A stretch of 64,000 nucleotides of DNA from IMG/VR virus record IMGVR_UViG_3300025684_000012; one strand, 5' to 3'. The DNA comes from a virus. The position numbers were made by a program, and so were the translations under genes. Each line of letters begins with the position of its first letter. Position 1 is the stretch's first letter. The notes beneath the pieces were generated by a model. It was given only the letters and a program-made list of their open reading frames with translations. It made no database searches and was not told the DNA's origin. Below are positions 38,547 to 47,251 of this stretch, piece by piece.

Positions 38547-38726
38547 TTATTTGTTGCGACTGGTCATTCTTTTTAGTAGTTCTACCTGATGCTTACGTTT
38601 GTTGCGGCGGTCATACTTCTTACGTACGACTACAGTGGTGTTATCGTCACCTGCACCTGGAACAGCTGTTGTGGTCATCGACAGCTCTTCGTCAAACTTC
38701 TGGATAAATTGTTGTAACGTATACAT
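38547..38726 (-). CDS. Small hypothetical (possible internal head protein)
   Basis: Start reassigned to MYTLQQFIQKFDEE. Confidence 0.5.
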   Translation of the reverse strand: MYTLQQFIQKFDEELSMTTTAVPGAGDDNTTVVVRKKYDRRNKRKHQVELLKRMTSRNK

Positions 38727-40888: not shown

Positions 40889-41824
40889 TTAGTTTCCTTT
40901 TACAGGTTTTTTGTCGCCATTAGACAGGTTATCATTGCCACGGTTTGGTGCCTGCTTAGTAACTTGACCAGCTTTAGTCGCCATATCGTGACCTTTTTCT
41001 TCGCCATCCTCAATCTTCTTATCAGATTGCTTATGCTTGGCGATGAATTCTTTTGACTTAGGGGATTCTTTAGAATCAATCTCTTCCGGAGCTAATGCGT
41101 CCTTTGTGTGACTAGCCGCCTCTTCAATTTGTGACCACAAGGCGATGAATGCTTCGCGAGTATCAACCGATTCAATCTTAGATATTTCTGCTTTCTTATC
41201 TGATTGGTGGTCGCTATCCTTGAAGTCTTTAGTTGATGAAGACTTGGGAGCGCCTTTAGATTTCTTGGGGGCTACAACAGGTTCTTCTTCAGAGTCACCA
41301 TCTTCCACAGCTTCGTTCTTAGCAATAGCTTTGCGACGCTTTTTAAGATACTCGTCGGACTTGTCTGTGTCGCCGTCATTATCGACGTCGTCGTCTTCTT
41401 GTCCAACAGGATCCATAGCTTCTTTCTTGTTGTAAAGGCCTTTTGCCATCTTTTCTTTAGATGACATCTTTTCCTCTACTTCCGCCTGCTCTTTGTTTGA
41501 CTTCATCCGTGAACATGCTTCCATGTATGATTGTAATGACTCACCAAGATCCACAGACTCGTCGAATTCGTATGACTCTTTAACATGCATACGCTCGCCT
41601 TCTTTAGTACCGTGCATCAAGGCGCGCGCAACAACTTTATGGCCGCCCCTCTTGAGTTGCTTTTCGTGACGGTGAGCATCGTTTGCAGTGAATACAATTG
41701 TGCTATGCTCATTGCCGGTCTTCTTATCCTTATGGTAGATCTTGATACCAGTTGGATTGCCTGACTGCTCGGAGACTTTCATTGACTTGTACGCCTCCAT
41801 AATTTTCGAAATATTGTTTGACAT
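40889..41824 (-). CDS. Highly charged putative internal head/core protein
   Basis: E/K-rich; MDPVG.ED.D.DNDGD.D.SD.YL..RR.AI motif; many hydrophobic-x-E sites. Confidence 0.65.
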   Translation of the reverse strand: MSNNISKIMEAYKSMKVSEQSGNPTGIKIYHKDKKTGNEHSTIVFTANDAHRHEKQLKRGGHKVVARALMHGTKEGERMHVKESYEFDESVDLGESLQSYMEACSRMKSNKEQAEVEEKMSSKEKMAKGLYNKKEAMDPVGQEDDDVDNDGDTDKSDEYLKKRRKAIAKNEAVEDGDSEEEPVVAPKKSKGAPKSSSTKDFKDSDHQSDKKAEISKIESVDTREAFIALWSQIEEAASHTKDALAPEEIDSKESPKSKEFIAKHKQSDKKIEDGEEKGHDMATKAGQVTKQAPNRGNDNLSNGDKKPVKGN

Positions 41825-42206: not shown

Positions 42207-42214
42207 TATTTATA
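42207..42214 (-). promoter_or_regulatory. Late promoter TATAAATA
   Basis: Exact consensus. Confidence 0.7.
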
Positions 42215-42219
42215 CAGTA

Positions 42220-42546
42220 TCAACTATCTACTTTTGCTCCGGCGCGCCATTGGTAACATGACCAGTATCGAGCCTTCCACTTAGGTCCGGGGTTATCGCA
42301 TTTATGTCTTGCTCTAAAACTTTTACGTCGCTCTGGATCATCCCTCTTTATAGAGAGGTTTGGATCACCAAAGTTAACCTTTACCACGTTACCCTTGTCG
42401 TTCTTTACGTACACAGAAAACTTCTTAGGACCATCAGGAGTACGGAACGGGTTATTAAGCTCAACCTTTCTCCCCTGATACTCAGCTGCTTCTGAGACTA
42501 ACTCCTCGCAAGTACATTCTGCTATATAAGACTTAAATGTTAACAT
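42220..42546 (-). CDS. Conserved small virion-associated protein
   Basis: KKF.VYVK...GNV.KV.FGD, RRKSFRARHKC, A.YWSC..W; N-terminus MLTFKSYIAE. Confidence 0.75.
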   Translation of the reverse strand: MLTFKSYIAECTCEELVSEAAEYQGRKVELNNPFRTPDGPKKFSVYVKNDKGNVVKVNFGDPNLSIKRDDPERRKSFRARHKCDNPGPKWKARYWSCYQWRAGAKVDS

Positions 42547-42552
42547 TACTGT

Positions 42553-42768
42553 TTAACCTTCCTTGAAACCAGCAAGTTTAGCCTTAGGTGTTTCAACGGT
42601 CTCGGCTTCTTTTTTCTTATCAGAAGTGCCAGCCTTTTTACGTTTCTTCGCCATCATAGCAGCATAGTTCTTCGGTACTTTGTAAGAGGCTTCCTCAACA
42701 GAGGATTGTTTTGATTGTATCTCAGTTGATTCGCTGAGAGATTCTCTTAGCTCAAAGAAATCTTTCAT
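42553..42768 (-). CDS. Small charged protein (possible internal protein)
   Basis: MKDFFELRE start. Confidence 0.55.
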   Translation of the reverse strand: MKDFFELRESLSESTEIQSKQSSVEEASYKVPKNYAAMMAKKRKKAGTSDKKKEAETVETPKAKLAGFKEG

Positions 42769-44045
42769 TTTTTTGTCATGCTCCGTATAATATCAGCCAG
42801 CGCTTTTGCTGAGATGTTTTTGGCGTTATATCGGCGAATGGTTTCAGCCGCCCAGTATTCTACACTATGCCTTTTTGGGTTGTCGCTTTTGGTCATAGAT
42901 TTGATTGCATCATTAGCAAGATGATTGTAATGTTTTTTCAGAAGTGTTTTTGATGCCACACGACCAATGTCATGGGACCATGCACGTTCGTCTATATCCA
43001 TGTGGGGGGTATCTTTAACGTACTTCTTTTTCAGTTTATCAGTACCTTCGTCGCCGGCACCGTTTTCTTCAGGGACGCAATTGGGGACGTCTTTGCCACC
43101 TTTCTTCTTCATACCAACTTGCTTGTATCCATCCCAACAATCTTCGCTGTAGATATCTATGAACGACTTATTTACTCGTACGCCATCAGTATTCGTTGGT
43201 TTAGGTTCTTCAGTTTGTTCACGTTCTTCGATCAGCTCAACTGCATCTAACCATCTGCGAGTTTTAACGCCATTGGTTTCTGTGATTACATAGTTCGCGC
43301 CAAGGTGAGTTACTTCTGTGAGATTGCCAGATTCTTTGACAACGACAATGTCTCCCACTTTGTATAGATCCCCTTGAACAAACTTCTCGCGGGTTTCGGA
43401 TACAGACTCCAATGAGATGTGATGCTTGAATTGTTTTTCTTCTTTGAGACCCATTCCTGCCCGCACGTCATTGAATAACTTGCGCGCATCAGCATTAGAC
43501 ACAGCTTTCGGTACGCCTTGAGAAAATGCTACGAAGTCGTTGTCGACGGCGTTCTGACGTTGTTTAGAAGCAGACATTCCCTCAATACCATCAGAATCAG
43601 GATCGCGTTGACCAGCAGAGATAACTTTGATTGATTGGAAGTTATAGAAGCCGTGACGCGCTTCCTTTCCGTTATATTGGTTGAATAGAACGTCGAATTG
43701 TGTGACGCGATCGTCTCCAACAACCATAGTGACGTTCTTATATCCTTGGTCATACAGGGCTACCAATACATCGATTGGGGTTTTGATTTTCTTATCGATT
43801 ATGATGTGTCGCGCATGCTTCGGAAACATTTTACGCGTATACTTGACTTTATCAGTGTATGATAGTGGATTCTTTTTCTTATCTTGGGTTTGTGACACAT
43901 ACACTTTATAGTCAGCCTTACCAGACTTGCTCGCTAACACGTCCATCACTTTGCCGTGACCAATCGTCGGGGGGTTCATTCGGCCGAACGTGAAGAATAC
44001 CTCACGCTGCTCTTCAACTAAGTACTGACTGAAATTCTTAATCAT
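42765..44045 (-). CDS. Cytidylyltransferase-like (HxGH) nucleotidyltransferase
   Basis: FGRMNPPTIGH, KNPL, VVGDDR, SAG.RDPD, MSASK.R; likely start MIKNFSQYLVE. Confidence 0.85.
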   Translation of the reverse strand: MIKNFSQYLVEEQREVFFTFGRMNPPTIGHGKVMDVLASKSGKADYKVYVSQTQDKKKNPLSYTDKVKYTRKMFPKHARHIIIDKKIKTPIDVLVALYDQGYKNVTMVVGDDRVTQFDVLFNQYNGKEARHGFYNFQSIKVISAGQRDPDSDGIEGMSASKQRQNAVDNDFVAFSQGVPKAVSNADARKLFNDVRAGMGLKEEKQFKHHISLESVSETREKFVQGDLYKVGDIVVVKESGNLTEVTHLGANYVITETNGVKTRRWLDAVELIEEREQTEEPKPTNTDGVRVNKSFIDIYSEDCWDGYKQVGMKKKGGKDVPNCVPEENGAGDEGTDKLKKKYVKDTPHMDIDERAWSHDIGRVASKTLLKKHYNHLANDAIKSMTKSDNPKRHSVEYWAAETIRRYNAKNISAKALADIIRSMTKK

Positions 44046-44478
44046 CTTTCTTACCACCACCACGTTTTTTAAGTAGCTCAGCTTTACGAACTTTAGGCAT
44101 CAGTTTGCGAGCAGACCGAGTTATCTTCATCTGCATTGCTGGCTTTTCCAAGCGTTTCTCTATTTCTTTTTTACGGGCGTTGGACAGCTCGGATTTTGGA
44201 ATATTTTTGGTGAATTTTTTAGCAAGGAGATTACGTGCTTGCTTGCGGGCGCGCTTTTGTAGCTTATCTAACGTAGCTACCTTACGCTCCGCTCGACGAC
44301 GACCCATAGCAATCTTGGCCTTGTTGCGCTTCATAGAAATAGCTTTCTTTCTACGCTGCTGCATATCAAGAGCTTCGTCTTGTACTTTTCGGTCTTTAGC
44401 TGCTTTAGCTAATTCGTAATCGCCTGTCATAGTGTAATCAACAGCCACGAATTGTTTGAACGACAATGGTTTGTCCAT
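44038..44478 (-). CDS. Very basic protein (possible core/internal protein)
   Basis: K/R-rich. Confidence 0.65.
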   Translation of the reverse strand: MDKPLSFKQFVAVDYTMTGDYELAKAAKDRKVQDEALDMQQRRKKAISMKRNKAKIAMGRRRAERKVATLDKLQKRARKQARNLLAKKFTKNIPKSELSNARKKEIEKRLEKPAMQMKITRSARKLMPKVRKAELLKKRGGGKKDD

Positions 44479-44509
44479 TGCTACTTATTCCTTTTATTTG
44501 GTTAACCCA

Positions 44510-45733
44510 TTAGTTGCGACTCGCTGAGTCCCATCCTTTTAATATGTCTGGAGAAAAGTTGTTGTATGAAAATTCCATACGATCAACCAATTTCACCGCA
44601 TCACCACCAAGTGTATCAATCGCTACATAACCTTCTTCACCGGTCACTTTATACCCAGTAGAAGTTTTTACGAAAGTATCGATCGATTTCAGTTCATTAA
44701 GTTTATTTATAAGTTTTATTTTAGCTAGCACTATGATCTTCTGTAACTCAAACATATTTACTAGCGATTGCTTGTTTGTATCGCTGAAAAACGACATTAC
44801 TTCGTCTTTCTTAGCAATCTTACCCGCCTTTCCACGTTCCGATTTGAGCTTATCAACTTCTGCATTAAACCGCTTGTCTATAAACGAGATTAGCTGGTCT
44901 ACATGCTTACGGGGATCTGCAATAACCTGTTGATTGCGTACCAGCTGGTTATTGAAGATCTCGATCAAACGTGGAAGTTCTGGGTGAGATTCCAAGGCGC
45001 GTAACGTAGTACCCGATATCTTGTTAAACAGTTTACCGGCTTGGGACAATAGTTTATTGACCTCTTCAGTATCTCGCTTAGACATTGTAGCCTTCGATAG
45101 GTCGGTTAGCATAGCATCCTGAGACCATACGTTAGCACTACGCTTGAGTGCCTTGACGTTGACTCCGTAATCTGCCTTCATGCTTTCAAACGTATTGCCC
45201 TTATATGTAGTATGCCATACGATACCAATCTTAGCCTTTAGTATCTCCTGCGCCTGGTCTACTGGTACAGCATATACAATGGTATTCGGATGGAACACTA
45301 CGTAATTCTGACCGTCGATCTTCTTTTTGGTTAAGTCACCAGGACCAAACAAGAAGTCCCCTTGAATAACGCCCTTGATTCCTAACGATGGAAGATACTG
45401 AAGTGCTGCTTTGAGTTTAACAGCCAAGTCACCAGATGTATCATCATCGATATCCTGGTCGGTCTTATACACCTTAGGGTTCTTATTGAAGATACCTTTC
45501 TTCGCTACGAAGAACTTACCGTCGGATGGATCAGTGCCACAGAAGATTGCGGGAGCTCCGTCCCATTTAACAGACACCTTACCGGTGTGCTTTCCTGCTA
45601 GCATGTCACGCAATGAACGTAAAGCGAATATAGCTTGACGAGTCCCATCAACGCCCCCATAGATGACCTTATCTTCGATATGAGTCATATGAGTGTTTTT
45701 TTGTTCGCTTATAAATTGCTTGAAAGAATTCAT
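44510..45733 (-). CDS. Conserved T4-like protein with ATP-dependent ligase-like motifs
   Basis: SVKWDGAP, IQGDFLF, EGYV, VKLVDR. Confidence 0.7.
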   Translation of the reverse strand: MNSFKQFISEQKNTHMTHIEDKVIYGGVDGTRQAIFALRSLRDMLAGKHTGKVSVKWDGAPAIFCGTDPSDGKFFVAKKGIFNKNPKVYKTDQDIDDDTSGDLAVKLKAALQYLPSLGIKGVIQGDFLFGPGDLTKKKIDGQNYVVFHPNTIVYAVPVDQAQEILKAKIGIVWHTTYKGNTFESMKADYGVNVKALKRSANVWSQDAMLTDLSKATMSKRDTEEVNKLLSQAGKLFNKISGTTLRALESHPELPRLIEIFNNQLVRNQQVIADPRKHVDQLISFIDKRFNAEVDKLKSERGKAGKIAKKDEVMSFFSDTNKQSLVNMFELQKIIVLAKIKLINKLNELKSIDTFVKTSTGYKVTGEEGYVAIDTLGGDAVKLVDRMEFSYNNFSPDILKGWDSASRN

Positions 45734-45734
45734 T

Positions 45735-46487
45735 CTATACCCTTACCAATGGCTTAATACTTTTGCTAGTGAAGCGCTCCATCTCTATGTCTTCCTTCTT
45801 CACTTCCTTAATTGTTATGATCTCTCCGTACTGTGTATCCCTAGAGTCGTTGAGAACAAATATAACTTTGTGCCCCTTGAAGTAATGCTTGTACGCTAAC
45901 TCTTTATACCGTTGGCGCAACTGTTCATATGTGTCTGGGCTTTTCTTTTGTAGCTCAGCAAATTTGGATCCAGATATTTCAGGAGCTCCTTTCGAAGGAG
46001 TAATACCAGCTGCATAACATGCTTCCTGTATATCCACTTCCAACTGACTCATCCCAGGGATGTTGCCTCCAAGTTTGAAATCGCTAACATAATCTTTAGT
46101 CGATTTACTCTTCCACCGTACAGCTTTAACCTCAAACTTCTCACTGCCGTTAACCAAGTCGATACCAGCTGATGAACCGCCACCCAAGTGGCCCTTCTGC
46201 GTGAGTAAAAACAATACTGCCTCAGAGGGACCTACACCTTTCAAGGGCAGGTTGTGCAGCTTATCGTACTGGCTAGCACTATCCTTTTTAAGCAGCTTTA
46301 CCAGAGCATTATACTTAGCTTTGTCTATATTGGCAACAGCTTTGTCTGGATCAAATGACCCAAACATATGGGCGGCATACAAGTGTTGAATCTCTTTCTT
46401 GTACTTGTTAGTAGTGAAGTCATTACTCGTTAAGTTAAATGACGTCACCCGAGTCGCCCGTCTGATAAAATCGTTGTCTAGTTCCAT
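45735..46487 (-). CDS. Putative PD-(D/E)XK nuclease-like protein
   Basis: GVGPSE ... GIDL......EVK. Confidence 0.5.
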   Translation of the reverse strand: MELDNDFIRRATRVTSFNLTSNDFTTNKYKKEIQHLYAAHMFGSFDPDKAVANIDKAKYNALVKLLKKDSASQYDKLHNLPLKGVGPSEAVLFLLTQKGHLGGGSSAGIDLVNGSEKFEVKAVRWKSKSTKDYVSDFKLGGNIPGMSQLEVDIQEACYAAGITPSKGAPEISGSKFAELQKKSPDTYEQLRQRYKELAYKHYFKGHKVIFVLNDSRDTQYGEIITIKEVKKEDIEMERFTSKSIKPLVRV

Positions 46488-46518: not shown

Positions 46519-46526
46519 TATTTATA
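46519..46526 (-). promoter_or_regulatory. Late promoter TATAAATA
   Basis: Exact consensus upstream of 46487. Confidence 0.75.
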
Positions 46527-46534
46527 CAATTCGA

Positions 46535-47251
46535 CTAAACGTCTAGTAATGGGGCGGGGGCTTGTTCAGCTTTGTGCTGGGCTATTGTTTGTTTGAGTGG
46601 GCGTACCCAGTTGTCGCGGTGCTCGATGAACACCTGAGGAGAGTGGCCGTCGACCGTTATTAACGTAACAAGCTGGGTGATAGGCATGCCAGTGCGTTCT
46701 TCCCACATGATAGCATAGGCCGCTTCCTGCATATAGTAGTTAGTGATCCACTTGGCACTCTTAGGCTTCTTCGATGTTTTGAAGTCGATGATTGATATCT
46801 TACCATCAAATTCAGCTACACAGTCGACTCGCCCAGCAACTCCTAGGTGAGTTGAGTATAGGGGTGCCTCTTGGGCATACACTTTACCAATACGGGTGTC
46901 AAGTATTGGCTGCAGATCGAGAAAGCTGGCTATAATGTCGGGAGTGTATCCGTCAGTATAATTGTCATCATTATCAATGTATTTCTCAATCAGTTCGTGA
47001 ACAGCAGTACCGCGGGTTGATGCGCGATGCATAATCCTATCTGCCTGCTCGTCACCAACCTTTTTACGCCAAGCAGCAATTCCATCTCGCGACAGAATAG
47101 AGAGCACTGTTGTAATGGAAGGTAGTTTTTGCCCATCAGGGGCATTATACAGTCGTCCACTTTCTGTAGTGGTCGCCGTAAGCTCTACCAGTTCAACCGG
47201 CTCATGTTTAAATATCATCGTCATTATCATCCCAAAAACTAATATCATCAA
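46535..47251 (-). CDS. PD-(D/E)XK exonuclease (Cas4/RecB-like)
   Basis: PSITTVL, RGT.VH..IE, AGRVDC, IDFKTS, Y.MQ..AYA. Confidence 0.88.
   Translation of the reverse strand: MMILVFGMIMTMIFKHEPVELVELTATTTESGRLYNAPDGQKLPSITTVLSILSRDGIAAWRKKVGDEQADRIMHRASTRGTAVHELIEKYIDNDDNYTDGYTPDIIASFLDLQPILDTRIGKVYAQEAPLYSTHLGVAGRVDCVAEFDGKISIIDFKTSKKPKSAKWITNYYMQEAAYAIMWEERTGMPITQLVTLITVDGHSPQVFIEHRDNWVRPLKQTIAQHKAEQAPAPLLDV

What the first reader, a model, noticed from the sequence alone, without database searches (positions are those of the whole stretch)
42765..45733. Ligase-motif protein paired with an HxGH nucleotidyltransferase, both apparently capsid-targeted
Seen: the 407-aa hypothetical has, in order, KWDG (motif I KxDG), QGD (III), EGYV (IV) and VKLV (V) of covalent nucleotidyltransferases (RNA/DNA ligases, capping enzymes). 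Two genes downstream is a TIGH/MSAS NMNAT-cytidylyltransferase-fold enzyme with a charged tail. Inference: an injected two-enzyme module acting immediately on entry, for example tRNA/RNA repair, NAD or signalling-nucleotide manipulation, or protein nucleotidylation as anti-defence.
Basis: partly seen in the sequence, partly recalled or inferred. Interest (0 to 1): 0.74.

Follow-up and report, generated by a model that had tools for sequence, protein, structure and literature searches.

The report
Capsid-tagged ligase-like and NMNAT-like pair
A marine T4-like phage encodes an uncharacterised ligase-fold enzyme (DUF6267) and an NAD-synthesis-type adenylyltransferase that are always neighbours or fused, and both start with the short tag that phage T4 uses to load proteins into its head, so they are probably injected with the DNA; what they act on is still unknown.

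Summary

The two genes were syntenic in 63 of 63 related viral contigs with enough sequence downstream, and elsewhere they are fused in both orders.

Both proteins begin with a leader in the same register as the T4 capsid-targeting sequence (aromatic at 4 and 7, I/L at 8, E at 10). In relatives this leader heads about 30 unrelated protein families. The operon has a T4-type late promoter. Three published cyanophage virion proteomes contain the adenylyltransferase homologue, each with the leader. The leaderless DUF6267 of S-SZBM1 and S-CREM2 is not listed in their proteomes.

Packaging and injection are therefore likely but not shown for this phage, and the chemistry is unresolved. Strand sealing is most likely, possibly NAD-linked.

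Four related complete genomes have no other recognisable ligase.

This scan has already reported the same family and leader on other phage DNA.

The parts
46519..46526 (-). T4-type late promoter TATAAATA, about 32 nt upstream of the first gene of the operon
   Evidence: The window has 14 exact copies against 4.8 expected. This copy lies in the 47-nt gap between the exonuclease gene and 46487.
45735..46487 (-). 250-aa protein with no family and a D...E-x-K nuclease-like motif. It is a leaderless homologue of leader-bearing cargo proteins in related phages.
   Evidence: 37% identity to proteins that carry an extra 17-residue leader.
44510..45733 (-). DUF6267 protein, 407 aa: a ligase-like covalent nucleotidyltransferase fold with a helical insert (about residues 212-346) between motifs IIIa and IV.
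   Evidence: Pfam E 2e-104; AF2 pLDDT 92.9; structural matches to RNA and DNA ligases.
45704..45733 (-). Leader MNSFKQFISE of DUF6267 (F4, F7, I8, E10), the predicted propeptide, cut after E10.
   Evidence: Residues 1-11 are disordered in the model.
45557..45568 (-). Motif I KWDG. K56 is the predicted nucleotidyl-accepting lysine.
   Evidence: invariant K56, D58 and G59.
44579..44635 (-). Motifs IV (EGYV) and V (VKLVDR).
   Evidence: invariant E367, G368 and K381.
44038..44478 (-). 146-aa very basic protein (pI 10.8, 32% K+R) with a leader-like start whose processing position is D instead of E.
   Evidence: A homologue is present in 55 of 80 related loci. The C48C1 homologue has a canonical leader.
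42765..44045 (-). 426-aa HIGH-motif nucleotidyltransferase (NMNAT/PPAT fold, residues 11-200), followed by a small beta domain, a C-x19-C hairpin motif and a C-terminal helical domain.
   Evidence: phrog_395 at E 3e-68; Foldseek NadD/NadM/PPAT at E 2e-4; profile against archaeal NMNAT at E 2e-5.
44013..44045 (-). Leader MIKNFSQYLVE of the nucleotidyltransferase. Its ATG overlaps the end of the upstream gene by 8 nt.
   Evidence: (conserved in all 120 close homologues).
42220..42768 (-). Two small basic proteins (71 aa; 108 aa, DUF5754-like) that complete the operon. The 108-aa protein has a perfect leader, MLTFKSYIAE.
   Evidence: The 108-aa protein is fused to DUF6267 in P0127.

Best explanation
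The stretch 46526-42220 is a late operon of head cargo. DUF6267 and the HIGH nucleotidyltransferase form one conserved two-enzyme unit. Each is made with a T4-type capsid-targeting propeptide of about 10 residues. The propeptide is predicted to dock the protein on the prohead core, to be removed by the gp21-type prohead protease after I/L-x-E, and to leave the mature enzyme among the packaged DNA, from where it enters the cell with the genome. These steps are inferred by analogy with T4 IPIII and Alt. Chemistry, also inferred: DUF6267 takes a nucleotide on Lys56 and passes it to a 5'-phosphate end to seal a break. Its structural neighbours are RNA-ligase-like, so the substrate could be RNA, DNA or a hybrid. 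The partner is an NMN-adenylyltransferase-like enzyme that makes or regenerates the adenylate donor or another NAD-type dinucleotide beside it. Shown here: the folds, the motifs, the synteny and fusions, the leader register, and the portability of the leader. Not shown: packaging in this phage, lysine adenylylation, and the substrate.
For: Fold and motifs:
- Pfam DUF6267, E 2e-104; motifs invariant in 52 relatives; model pLDDT 92.9 with every motif on a beta strand.
- The first annotated viral outgroup is an RNA ligase, probability 0.97.

Partner enzyme:
- Fold of NadD, NadM and PPAT. The profile matches archaeal NMNAT best, at E 2.3e-5, including GRxxPxxxGH and NP(F/L).

Coupling:
- 63 of 63 loci have the partner downstream on the same strand.
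- The two are fused in both orders, and in phage S-PM2.

Targeting:
- The T4 leader was read from the T4 record. T4 determinants are residues 4 and 7 for targeting and 8 and 10 for cutting (PMC9026906).
- 192 of 933 forward ORFs in 80 related loci start with the leader, against 1.6% of internal Met, and they fall in 34 unrelated clusters. Codons at the leader positions vary, so the selection is on the peptide.
- The gene upstream of DUF6267 is hypervariable and mostly leader-bearing.
- A late promoter heads the operon. A gp21-type protease is present in four related complete genomes.
- The adenylyltransferase was detected in virions of S-SM1, S-SZBM1 and S-CREM2 (PMC3037559, PMC9146016, PMC10665884). 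All three proteins carry the leader.
Against: - No sequence-level link to any ligase family: Pfam, a profile against PDB, and hhalign against T4 Rnl2 all gave nothing.
- Motif III has D where ligases have E. Motif I lacks the R of DNA ligases. No OB domain follows motif V.
- DUF6267 is not listed in the virion proteomes of S-SZBM1 or S-CREM2. Their copies lack the leader, which fits the model but leaves DUF6267 packaging undemonstrated.
- The HIGH enzyme scores below Pfam's own cut-off here (18.8 against 21 bits), and the fold does not separate NMNAT from PPAT.
- In cyanophages the pair sits in the replication module, which suggests an intracellular role.
Confidence: 0.6

Rival explanations
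1. An intracellular replication role. DUF6267 would be the missing nick-sealing ligase of marine T4-like phages, standing in for gp30, and the NMNAT-like enzyme would support it or the host's NAD-dependent ligase. Packaging would be secondary or absent.
For: C48C1, Syn1, S-SZBM1 and a complete 146-kb relative all have DUF6267 but no PF01068, PF01653 or PF09414 ligase. T4 shows the reverse pattern. gp30 is listed among the non-cyanophage core genes (PMC5349666). In cyanophages the pair lies between gp41/mazG and gp61/nrdA. About a third of family members have no leader.
Against: Here the operon has a late promoter and both enzymes carry the leader. A replication ligase would be expected early or in the middle of infection. 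The fold neighbours are RNA ligases rather than DNA ligases. This reading is not exclusive of packaging.
Confidence: 0.17
2. An NAD-centred effector or counter-defence. The pair would manipulate NAD or a related dinucleotide on entry, and DUF6267 would nucleotidylate a small molecule or a protein rather than seal nucleic acid.
For: The partner resembles NMNAT most. One relative fuses DUF6267 to an ADP-ribosyltransferase domain, an NAD user like T4 Alt (PF03496, E 7e-25). A common form, with 344 member sequences, fuses a P-loop kinase to DUF6267. Published speculation on virion NMNAT is in PMC10665884.
Against: No Nampt, Nudix or PRPP-synthetase partner lies in the operon. The lysine nucleotidyltransferase fold is known almost only from polynucleotide ligases and capping enzymes. 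Fusion within a cargo polyprotein may reflect co-delivery rather than a shared pathway.
Confidence: 0.15
3. The leader is not a capsid signal in these phages. It would be a shared N-terminal element with another role, such as translation, folding, or docking to a non-capsid assembly.
For: No experiment exists for any marine phage. The CsCl-purified proteomes could contain abundant late proteins as contaminants, as the S-CREM2 authors themselves note.
Against: The register is identical to the mapped T4 determinants, including the I/L-x-E cleavage site. The leader is portable across about 30 unrelated families. It is disordered in both models. In three phages the detected protein has the leader, and in two of these phages the leaderless neighbour is not listed. 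Leader-like cleavage motifs lie at domain junctions in the fusions.
Confidence: 0.08

Closest known systems
ATP-dependent RNA ligases without an OB domain: Naegleria NgrRnl (Rnl5), T. brucei REL1 and T4 Rnl2, fungal Trl1 ligase domain, T4 Rnl1
   Different: There is no detectable sequence homology. A helical insert of about 135 residues lies between IIIa and IV. Motif III has Asp, not Glu. Extra invariant elements are an N-terminal H-x-x-H-x-E-D and W-H-T-T-Y. The protein is obligately paired with a HIGH nucleotidyltransferase and carries a capsid leader.
Archaeal / NadM-type NMN adenylyltransferase (MJ0541, M. thermautotrophicus NMNAT) and the NadD/PPAT fold
   Same: GRxxPxxxGH and the following NP(F/L) segment align (E 2e-5). 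The Rossmann-like fold matches, and a second S-x-S-x-x-R motif is present.
   Different: The first His of HxGH is Thr here, as in PPAT (recalled). The protein has 220 extra C-terminal residues in three further modules. It is a virion protein in cyanophages. The acceptor is untested.
T4 internal proteins IPI-III and Alt, loaded through the capsid-targeting sequence and trimmed by the gp21 protease
   Same: The leader has the same length and register (aromatic at 4 and 7, I/L at 8, E at 10). It sits on diverse cargo in a hypervariable locus. Small basic companion proteins are present, genes are expressed late, and related genomes carry a gp21-type protease.
   Different: The cargo here is a pair of nucleotidyltransferases instead of a restriction inhibitor or ADP-ribosyltransferase. 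No experimental proof exists outside T-even phages.
T4 Pnkp plus Rnl1 tRNA repair against anticodon nucleases
   Same: It is a phage-encoded kinase plus ligase logic. Kinase-DUF6267 fusions are common.
   Different: T4 Pnkp and Rnl1 are not packaged (recalled). No phosphatase or cyclic phosphodiesterase is evident here. The kinase domain matches only generic P-loop kinases.

Membership tests
Covalent (lysine) nucleotidyltransferase superfamily: polynucleotide ligases and capping enzymes | Motif I KxDG with a conserved lysine | tested here: met
   KWDG at residues 56-59. K56, D58 and G59 are invariant in 52 sequences.
Covalent (lysine) nucleotidyltransferase superfamily: polynucleotide ligases and capping enzymes | Motifs III, IIIa, IV and V in order on the strands of the nucleotide-binding sheet | tested here: met
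   G125 and D126, N150/T151/Y154, E367/G368 and K381 are invariant and lie on predicted strands. Motif III has D in place of the usual E.
Covalent (lysine) nucleotidyltransferase superfamily: polynucleotide ligases and capping enzymes | Nucleotidyltransferase domain fold | tested here: met
Covalent (lysine) nucleotidyltransferase superfamily: polynucleotide ligases and capping enzymes | Sequence-profile membership in a curated ligase family | tested here: not met
   Pfam reports only DUF6267. A profile against PDB found no ligase. hhalign against T4 Rnl2 gave probability 0.05.
Covalent (lysine) nucleotidyltransferase superfamily: polynucleotide ligases and capping enzymes | Formation of a covalent Lys-NMP intermediate | not testable with these tools
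   Needs labelling with alpha-32P ATP, NAD or GTP and a K56 mutant.
DNA ligase / mRNA capping enzyme branch | C-terminal OB domain with motif VI | tested here: not met
   Only 26 residues follow K381, and the model shows one short helix there.
HIGH-motif nucleotidyltransferases (CTP_transf_like; NMNAT, PPAT, GCT) | (H/T)xGH motif after the first strand, and a second ISxT-like motif | tested here: met
   TIGH within GRMNPPTIGH, and GMSASKQR. G21, R22, G29 and H30 are invariant.
HIGH-motif nucleotidyltransferases (CTP_transf_like; NMNAT, PPAT, GCT) | Rossmann-like fold of the family | tested here: met
   Foldseek gave 29 hits at E <= 1e-3, all NadD, NadM or PPAT, with target TM 0.55-0.69.
HIGH-motif nucleotidyltransferases (CTP_transf_like; NMNAT, PPAT, GCT) | Score above Pfam's gathering threshold | tested here: not met
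   18.8 bits against 21 for this protein. The S-SZBM1 homologue passes with 35.6 bits.
NMN adenylyltransferase (NadM / archaeal type) | Specific acceptor (NMN or NaMN) recognition and activity | tested here: inconclusive
   The best profile hits are MJ0541 (E 2.3e-5) and Mth NMNAT (E 2.8e-4), ahead of PPAT (E 7e-3), over 53 residues only. The fold does not discriminate.
T4-type capsid-targeted head cargo | N-terminal propeptide of about 10 residues with the mapped determinants (4, 7, 8, 10) | tested here: met
   DUF6267 has F4, F7, I8 and E10. The nucleotidyltransferase has the same spacing shifted by one.
T4-type capsid-targeted head cargo | The leader is portable between unrelated proteins | tested here: met
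   192 leader-bearing ORFs fall in 34 clusters in 80 loci, against a 1.6% background.
T4-type capsid-targeted head cargo | gp21-type prohead protease and late transcription | tested here: met
   Peptidase_S77 is present in four related complete genomes. TATAAATA lies upstream of the operon. The window itself was not searched for the protease.
T4-type capsid-targeted head cargo | Physical presence in the virion and N-terminal processing | not testable with these tools
   Published proteomes detect only the adenylyltransferase homologues. Cleavage has not been examined.

The most novel reading that the evidence does not exclude
DUF6267 and its NMNAT-like partner would form a self-contained strand-sealing system that regenerates its own NAD-type adenylate donor. 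In this reading it is the only ligase of marine T4-like phages, and in many lineages it is pre-loaded in the capsid. Breaks in the incoming genome, or host-inflicted RNA or DNA cuts, could then be sealed before any phage gene is expressed and regardless of host NAD depletion.
Probability: 0.2. Interest if true: 0.85.

Novelty: new variant of a known kind. Interest (0 to 1): 0.66.

Why it matters
DUF6267 is very abundant. The representative library holds 2576 clusters at 50% identity, more than 8000 close hits were found in metagenomes, and the family occurs in hundreds of sequenced cyanomyovirus genomes. No paper in the searched library mentions it.

Recognising it as a ligase-superfamily enzyme, tied to an NMNAT-like partner, gives a testable function to two core genes of ocean myoviruses that otherwise show no ligase.

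The leader shows that the T4 capsid-targeting system extends to marine phages and marks a large, hypervariable set of probable injected proteins. That set is a ready catalogue of candidate counter-defence and take-over factors.

Tried and rejected
- Complex prediction for DUF6267 with the nucleotidyltransferase domain could not be run.
- Sequence routes to a ligase assignment all failed: phmmer and a profile against PDB, hhalign against T4 Rnl2, NCBIfam, and the protein atlas, which gave only unnamed viral clusters.
- Foldseek against PDB with the whole model gave no hit below E 0.1, although ligases led the list.
- The kinase domain of the kinase-DUF6267 fusion matched only generic adenylate, shikimate and zeta kinases at E > 0.05. 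A polynucleotide-kinase assignment is therefore not supported.
- Most N-terminal extensions of about 120 residues on fused forms have no Pfam family and are unrelated to one another.
- No whole genome is held for the window.
- The Syn9 transcriptome paper is not in the library, so expression timing in cyanophages was not checked.
- I considered whether H-x-T in the N-terminal motif and in W-H-T-T-Y could mark a 2H phosphoesterase site. I dropped the idea, because both lie within the ligase-like fold and I had no model coordinates to check proximity.
Full report
**Context.** The window comes from an uncultured marine T4-like myovirus. The closest sequenced relative is phage C48C1 (Kyanoviridae), with 70% protein identity for the 407-aa protein and the same local gene order. 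Genes in the region run on the minus strand:
- a PD-(D/E)XK exonuclease (46535-47251);
- a 47-nt gap holding an exact T4 late-promoter box, TATAAATA, at 46519-46526;
- a 250-aa protein with no family (45735-46487);
- the 407-aa protein (44510-45733);
- a 146-aa very basic protein (44038-44478);
- the nucleotidyltransferase (42765-44045);
- two small basic proteins (42553-42768 and 42220-42546);
- a second TATAAATA at 42207-42214.

Starts and stops overlap or abut, which indicates one operon.

**The observation.** The protein is Pfam DUF6267 (E 2e-104) and phrog_455. A full HMMER search of 1.84 billion representatives found 2576 clusters (collected). In an alignment of 52 full-length representatives at 35-61% identity, the following are invariant or nearly so:
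- K56, D58, G59;
- G125, D126;
- N150, T151, Y154;
- G170, H174, T175;
- K338;
- E367, G368;
- K381;
- the N-terminal H15, H18, E20, D21.

The motifs are therefore family-defining and not chance.

**Fold of DUF6267.** AlphaFold2 with this alignment gave pLDDT 92.9 and pTM 0.89. Residues 1-11 are disordered, every motif lies on a beta strand, and a helical domain (about 212-346) sits between motifs IIIa and IV.
- Foldseek against PDB was weak, though DNA and RNA ligases led the list.
- In the second look, 44 of 50 rows were ligases, with RNA ligases above DNA ligases.
- Against viral models, the family's own members came first, including a 591-aa S-PM2 protein that fuses DUF6267 to the cytidylyltransferase (TM 0.91). 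The first annotated outsider was an RNA ligase (E 2.7e-3, probability 0.97).
- No sequence method connects the family to ligases.

I take the ligase-superfamily fold as about 85-90% secure. The protein ends 26 residues after motif V, so it has no OB domain. Motif I lacks the arginine of DNA ligases and capping enzymes. Together these place it nearer the RNA-ligase branch.

**The partner.** The correct start is the ATG at 44045, which gives 426 aa, identical to a database protein. PHROGs call it cytidyltransferase (E 3e-68). Pfam CTP_transf_like is just below threshold. The model (pLDDT 76) has five parts:
- a disordered leader;
- a confident Rossmann-like domain (residues 11-200);
- a small beta domain;
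- a hairpin with a C-x19-C motif that is shared with many phage families;
- a helical C-terminal domain.

Foldseek matched NadD, NadM and PPAT (29 hits at E <= 1e-3). A profile of the family hit archaeal NMN adenylyltransferases best (MJ0541 at E 2.3e-5, Mth NMNAT at 2.8e-4, PPAT at 7e-3), aligning GRxxPxxxGH and the following NP(F/L) segment. NMNAT-like is the best guess, and the acceptor is untested.

**Coupling of the two enzymes.**
- Of 80 related viral contigs, 63 had at least 1.8 kb downstream of DUF6267. All 63 carried the partner on the same strand, usually 300-500 nt away, which leaves room for the small basic gene found in 55 loci.
- Cyanophages Syn1, S-SZBM1 and S-SM1 keep the same order.
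- Fusions occur in both orders, and phrog_455 itself spans both domains.
- Other fusion partners are a P-loop kinase (AAA_33/zeta type; one cluster has 344 members), the 108-aa DUF5754-like protein of this same operon, DUF5824, and an ADP-ribosyltransferase domain (PF03496, E 7e-25).

That test fails: they co-occur almost without exception.

**Capsid targeting.** I read the T4 leaders from the T4 record: ipII and ipIII start MKTYQEFIAE, and ipI starts MKTFKEF. A review of Mullaney and Black's work states that residues 4 and 7 carry targeting and residues 8 and 10 carry processing. It also states that Asp at position 10 blocks cutting but not targeting (PMC9026906).
- DUF6267 has F4, F7, I8 and E10.
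- The 108-aa protein has F4, Y7, I8 and E10.
- The nucleotidyltransferase has the same spacing shifted by one residue.
- The basic 146-aa protein has the same spacing but ends in D, which predicts a protein that is targeted but not processed.

In the window, only three real genes fit the pattern, and all three lie in this operon. In the 80 related loci, 192 of 933 forward ORFs begin with the leader. The controls were 8 of 439 reverse-strand ORFs and 1.6% of internal methionines. The leader-bearing proteins fall into 34 unrelated clusters. Codons at the conserved positions vary, so selection acts on the peptide. The gene just upstream of DUF6267 is hypervariable between relatives and usually leader-bearing, like the T-even internal-protein locus. 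Within DUF6267 itself, 56 of 125 assessable representatives (45%) fit the strict leader pattern. Counting about 20 further degenerate leaders judged by eye brings it to about 60%. The rest start directly at the H-x-x-H-x-E-D motif, as expected of an optional address tag. Fused forms keep leader-like F-x-x-L-L-T-E or F-L-T-E sites at domain junctions, which suggests polyprotein cargo cut by the head protease. Related complete genomes encode a gp21-type protease.

**Published virion data.** The cytidylyltransferase homologue was detected in purified virions of three cyanophages:
- S-SM1 (PMC3037559);
- S-SZBM1 (PMC9146016);
- S-CREM2 (PMC10665884).

I checked the three sequences. They begin MKKFSAFLNE, MRFRQFIIE and MKNFSSFLTE, all in the T4 register. 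The DUF6267 proteins of these phages lack the leader. Those of S-SZBM1 and S-CREM2 are absent from the published lists. The S-SM1 table was not inspected for DUF6267. This fits the view that the leader decides packaging. It also means DUF6267 packaging has never been observed. The S-CREM2 authors warn that abundant late proteins could co-purify.

**Function.** What is shown is a ligase-fold enzyme and an NMNAT-like enzyme that evolution keeps together. The chemistry is inferred.

Strand sealing is the default for this fold. The kinase fusions fit end healing, but the kinase is not specifically polynucleotide-kinase-like. The partner's NMNAT character and the ADP-ribosyltransferase fusion point to NAD.

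One economical model is that the partner makes NAD from NMN and ATP, and that DUF6267 takes AMP from NAD and releases NMN. I could not test this.

C48C1, Syn1, S-SZBM1 and a complete 146-kb relative have DUF6267 but no PF01068, PF01653 or PF09414 ligase. T4 shows the reverse. Published comparisons list gp30 as absent from cyanophage cores. DUF6267 may therefore also be the only ligase of these phages.

**Earlier notes of this scan.** Other readers and follow-up agents reported the same leader-tagged operon on this genome. They also reported the DUF6267 ligase-like family with leaders on several other phage genomes, including kinase, nuclease and Pol X-like neighbours or fusions. My results agree with those on the fold and on the leader. 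I did not test the Pol X fusion.

**Verdict.** This is a new, very abundant branch of the ligase superfamily in an obligate pair with an NMNAT-like enzyme, carried on the T4-type head-cargo system in a marine phage. The substrate and actual injection remain open.

Noticed in passing
window 45735-46487 (-): The 250-aa protein upstream of DUF6267 is 37% identical to proteins in related phages that carry an extra 17-residue capsid-type leader. Here the leader is missing and the late promoter sits where it would be. The protein has a D...E-x-K motif that suggests a restriction-endonuclease-like fold.
   Followed up: partly
window 42220-42546 (-): The 108-aa Cys-containing basic protein (weak DUF5754, phrog_7595) has a perfect T4-register leader. 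In another phage (P0127) it is fused in front of DUF6267, so it may be a third member of the unit.
   Followed up: partly
window 43071-43139 (-), residues 303-325 of the nucleotidyltransferase: A short C-W-D-G-Y ... P-N-C-V-P hairpin motif is shared with about ten otherwise unrelated PHROG families. The neighbouring 311-aa acidic protein (40889-41824) matches some of the same PHROG families but lacks the motif itself. Its function is unknown. It may be a portable module of head cargo.
   Followed up: no
window 44038-44478 (-): The very basic 146-aa protein between the two enzymes has the leader spacing but Asp at the processing position. In T4 that change blocks cutting but not packaging. The C48C1 homologue has Glu.
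   Followed up: partly
P0417 (metagenomic protein, 726 aa): DUF6267 is fused to an ADP-ribosyltransferase exoenzyme domain, with a leader at the N-terminus and an F-L-T-E site at the junction. It would be an Alt-like effector on the same polypeptide.
   Followed up: partly
window 38547-38726 (-) and 42553-42768 (-): Two further small basic ORFs start with weaker leader-like sequences (M-Y-T-L-Q-Q-F-I and M-K-D-F-F-E-L-R-E). The cargo cluster may extend down to about 38.5 kb.
   Followed up: no
window 44704-44711 (-): A third exact TATAAATA lies inside the DUF6267 coding sequence, upstream of the basic protein and the nucleotidyltransferase. It could be an internal late promoter or chance.
   Followed up: no
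L091 (G001:C1:38619-39776): In the complete 146-kb relative, the DUF6267 match contains one in-frame TAG. This could be a sequencing error, a pseudogene or recoding.
   Followed up: no
L093 1456-2364 (S-CREM2): S-CREM2 has a short (302-aa) leaderless DUF6267 with a reduced helical insert. It lies beside the tail-fibre genes, far from its cytidylyltransferase, so the pair is not always adjacent.
   Followed up: partly
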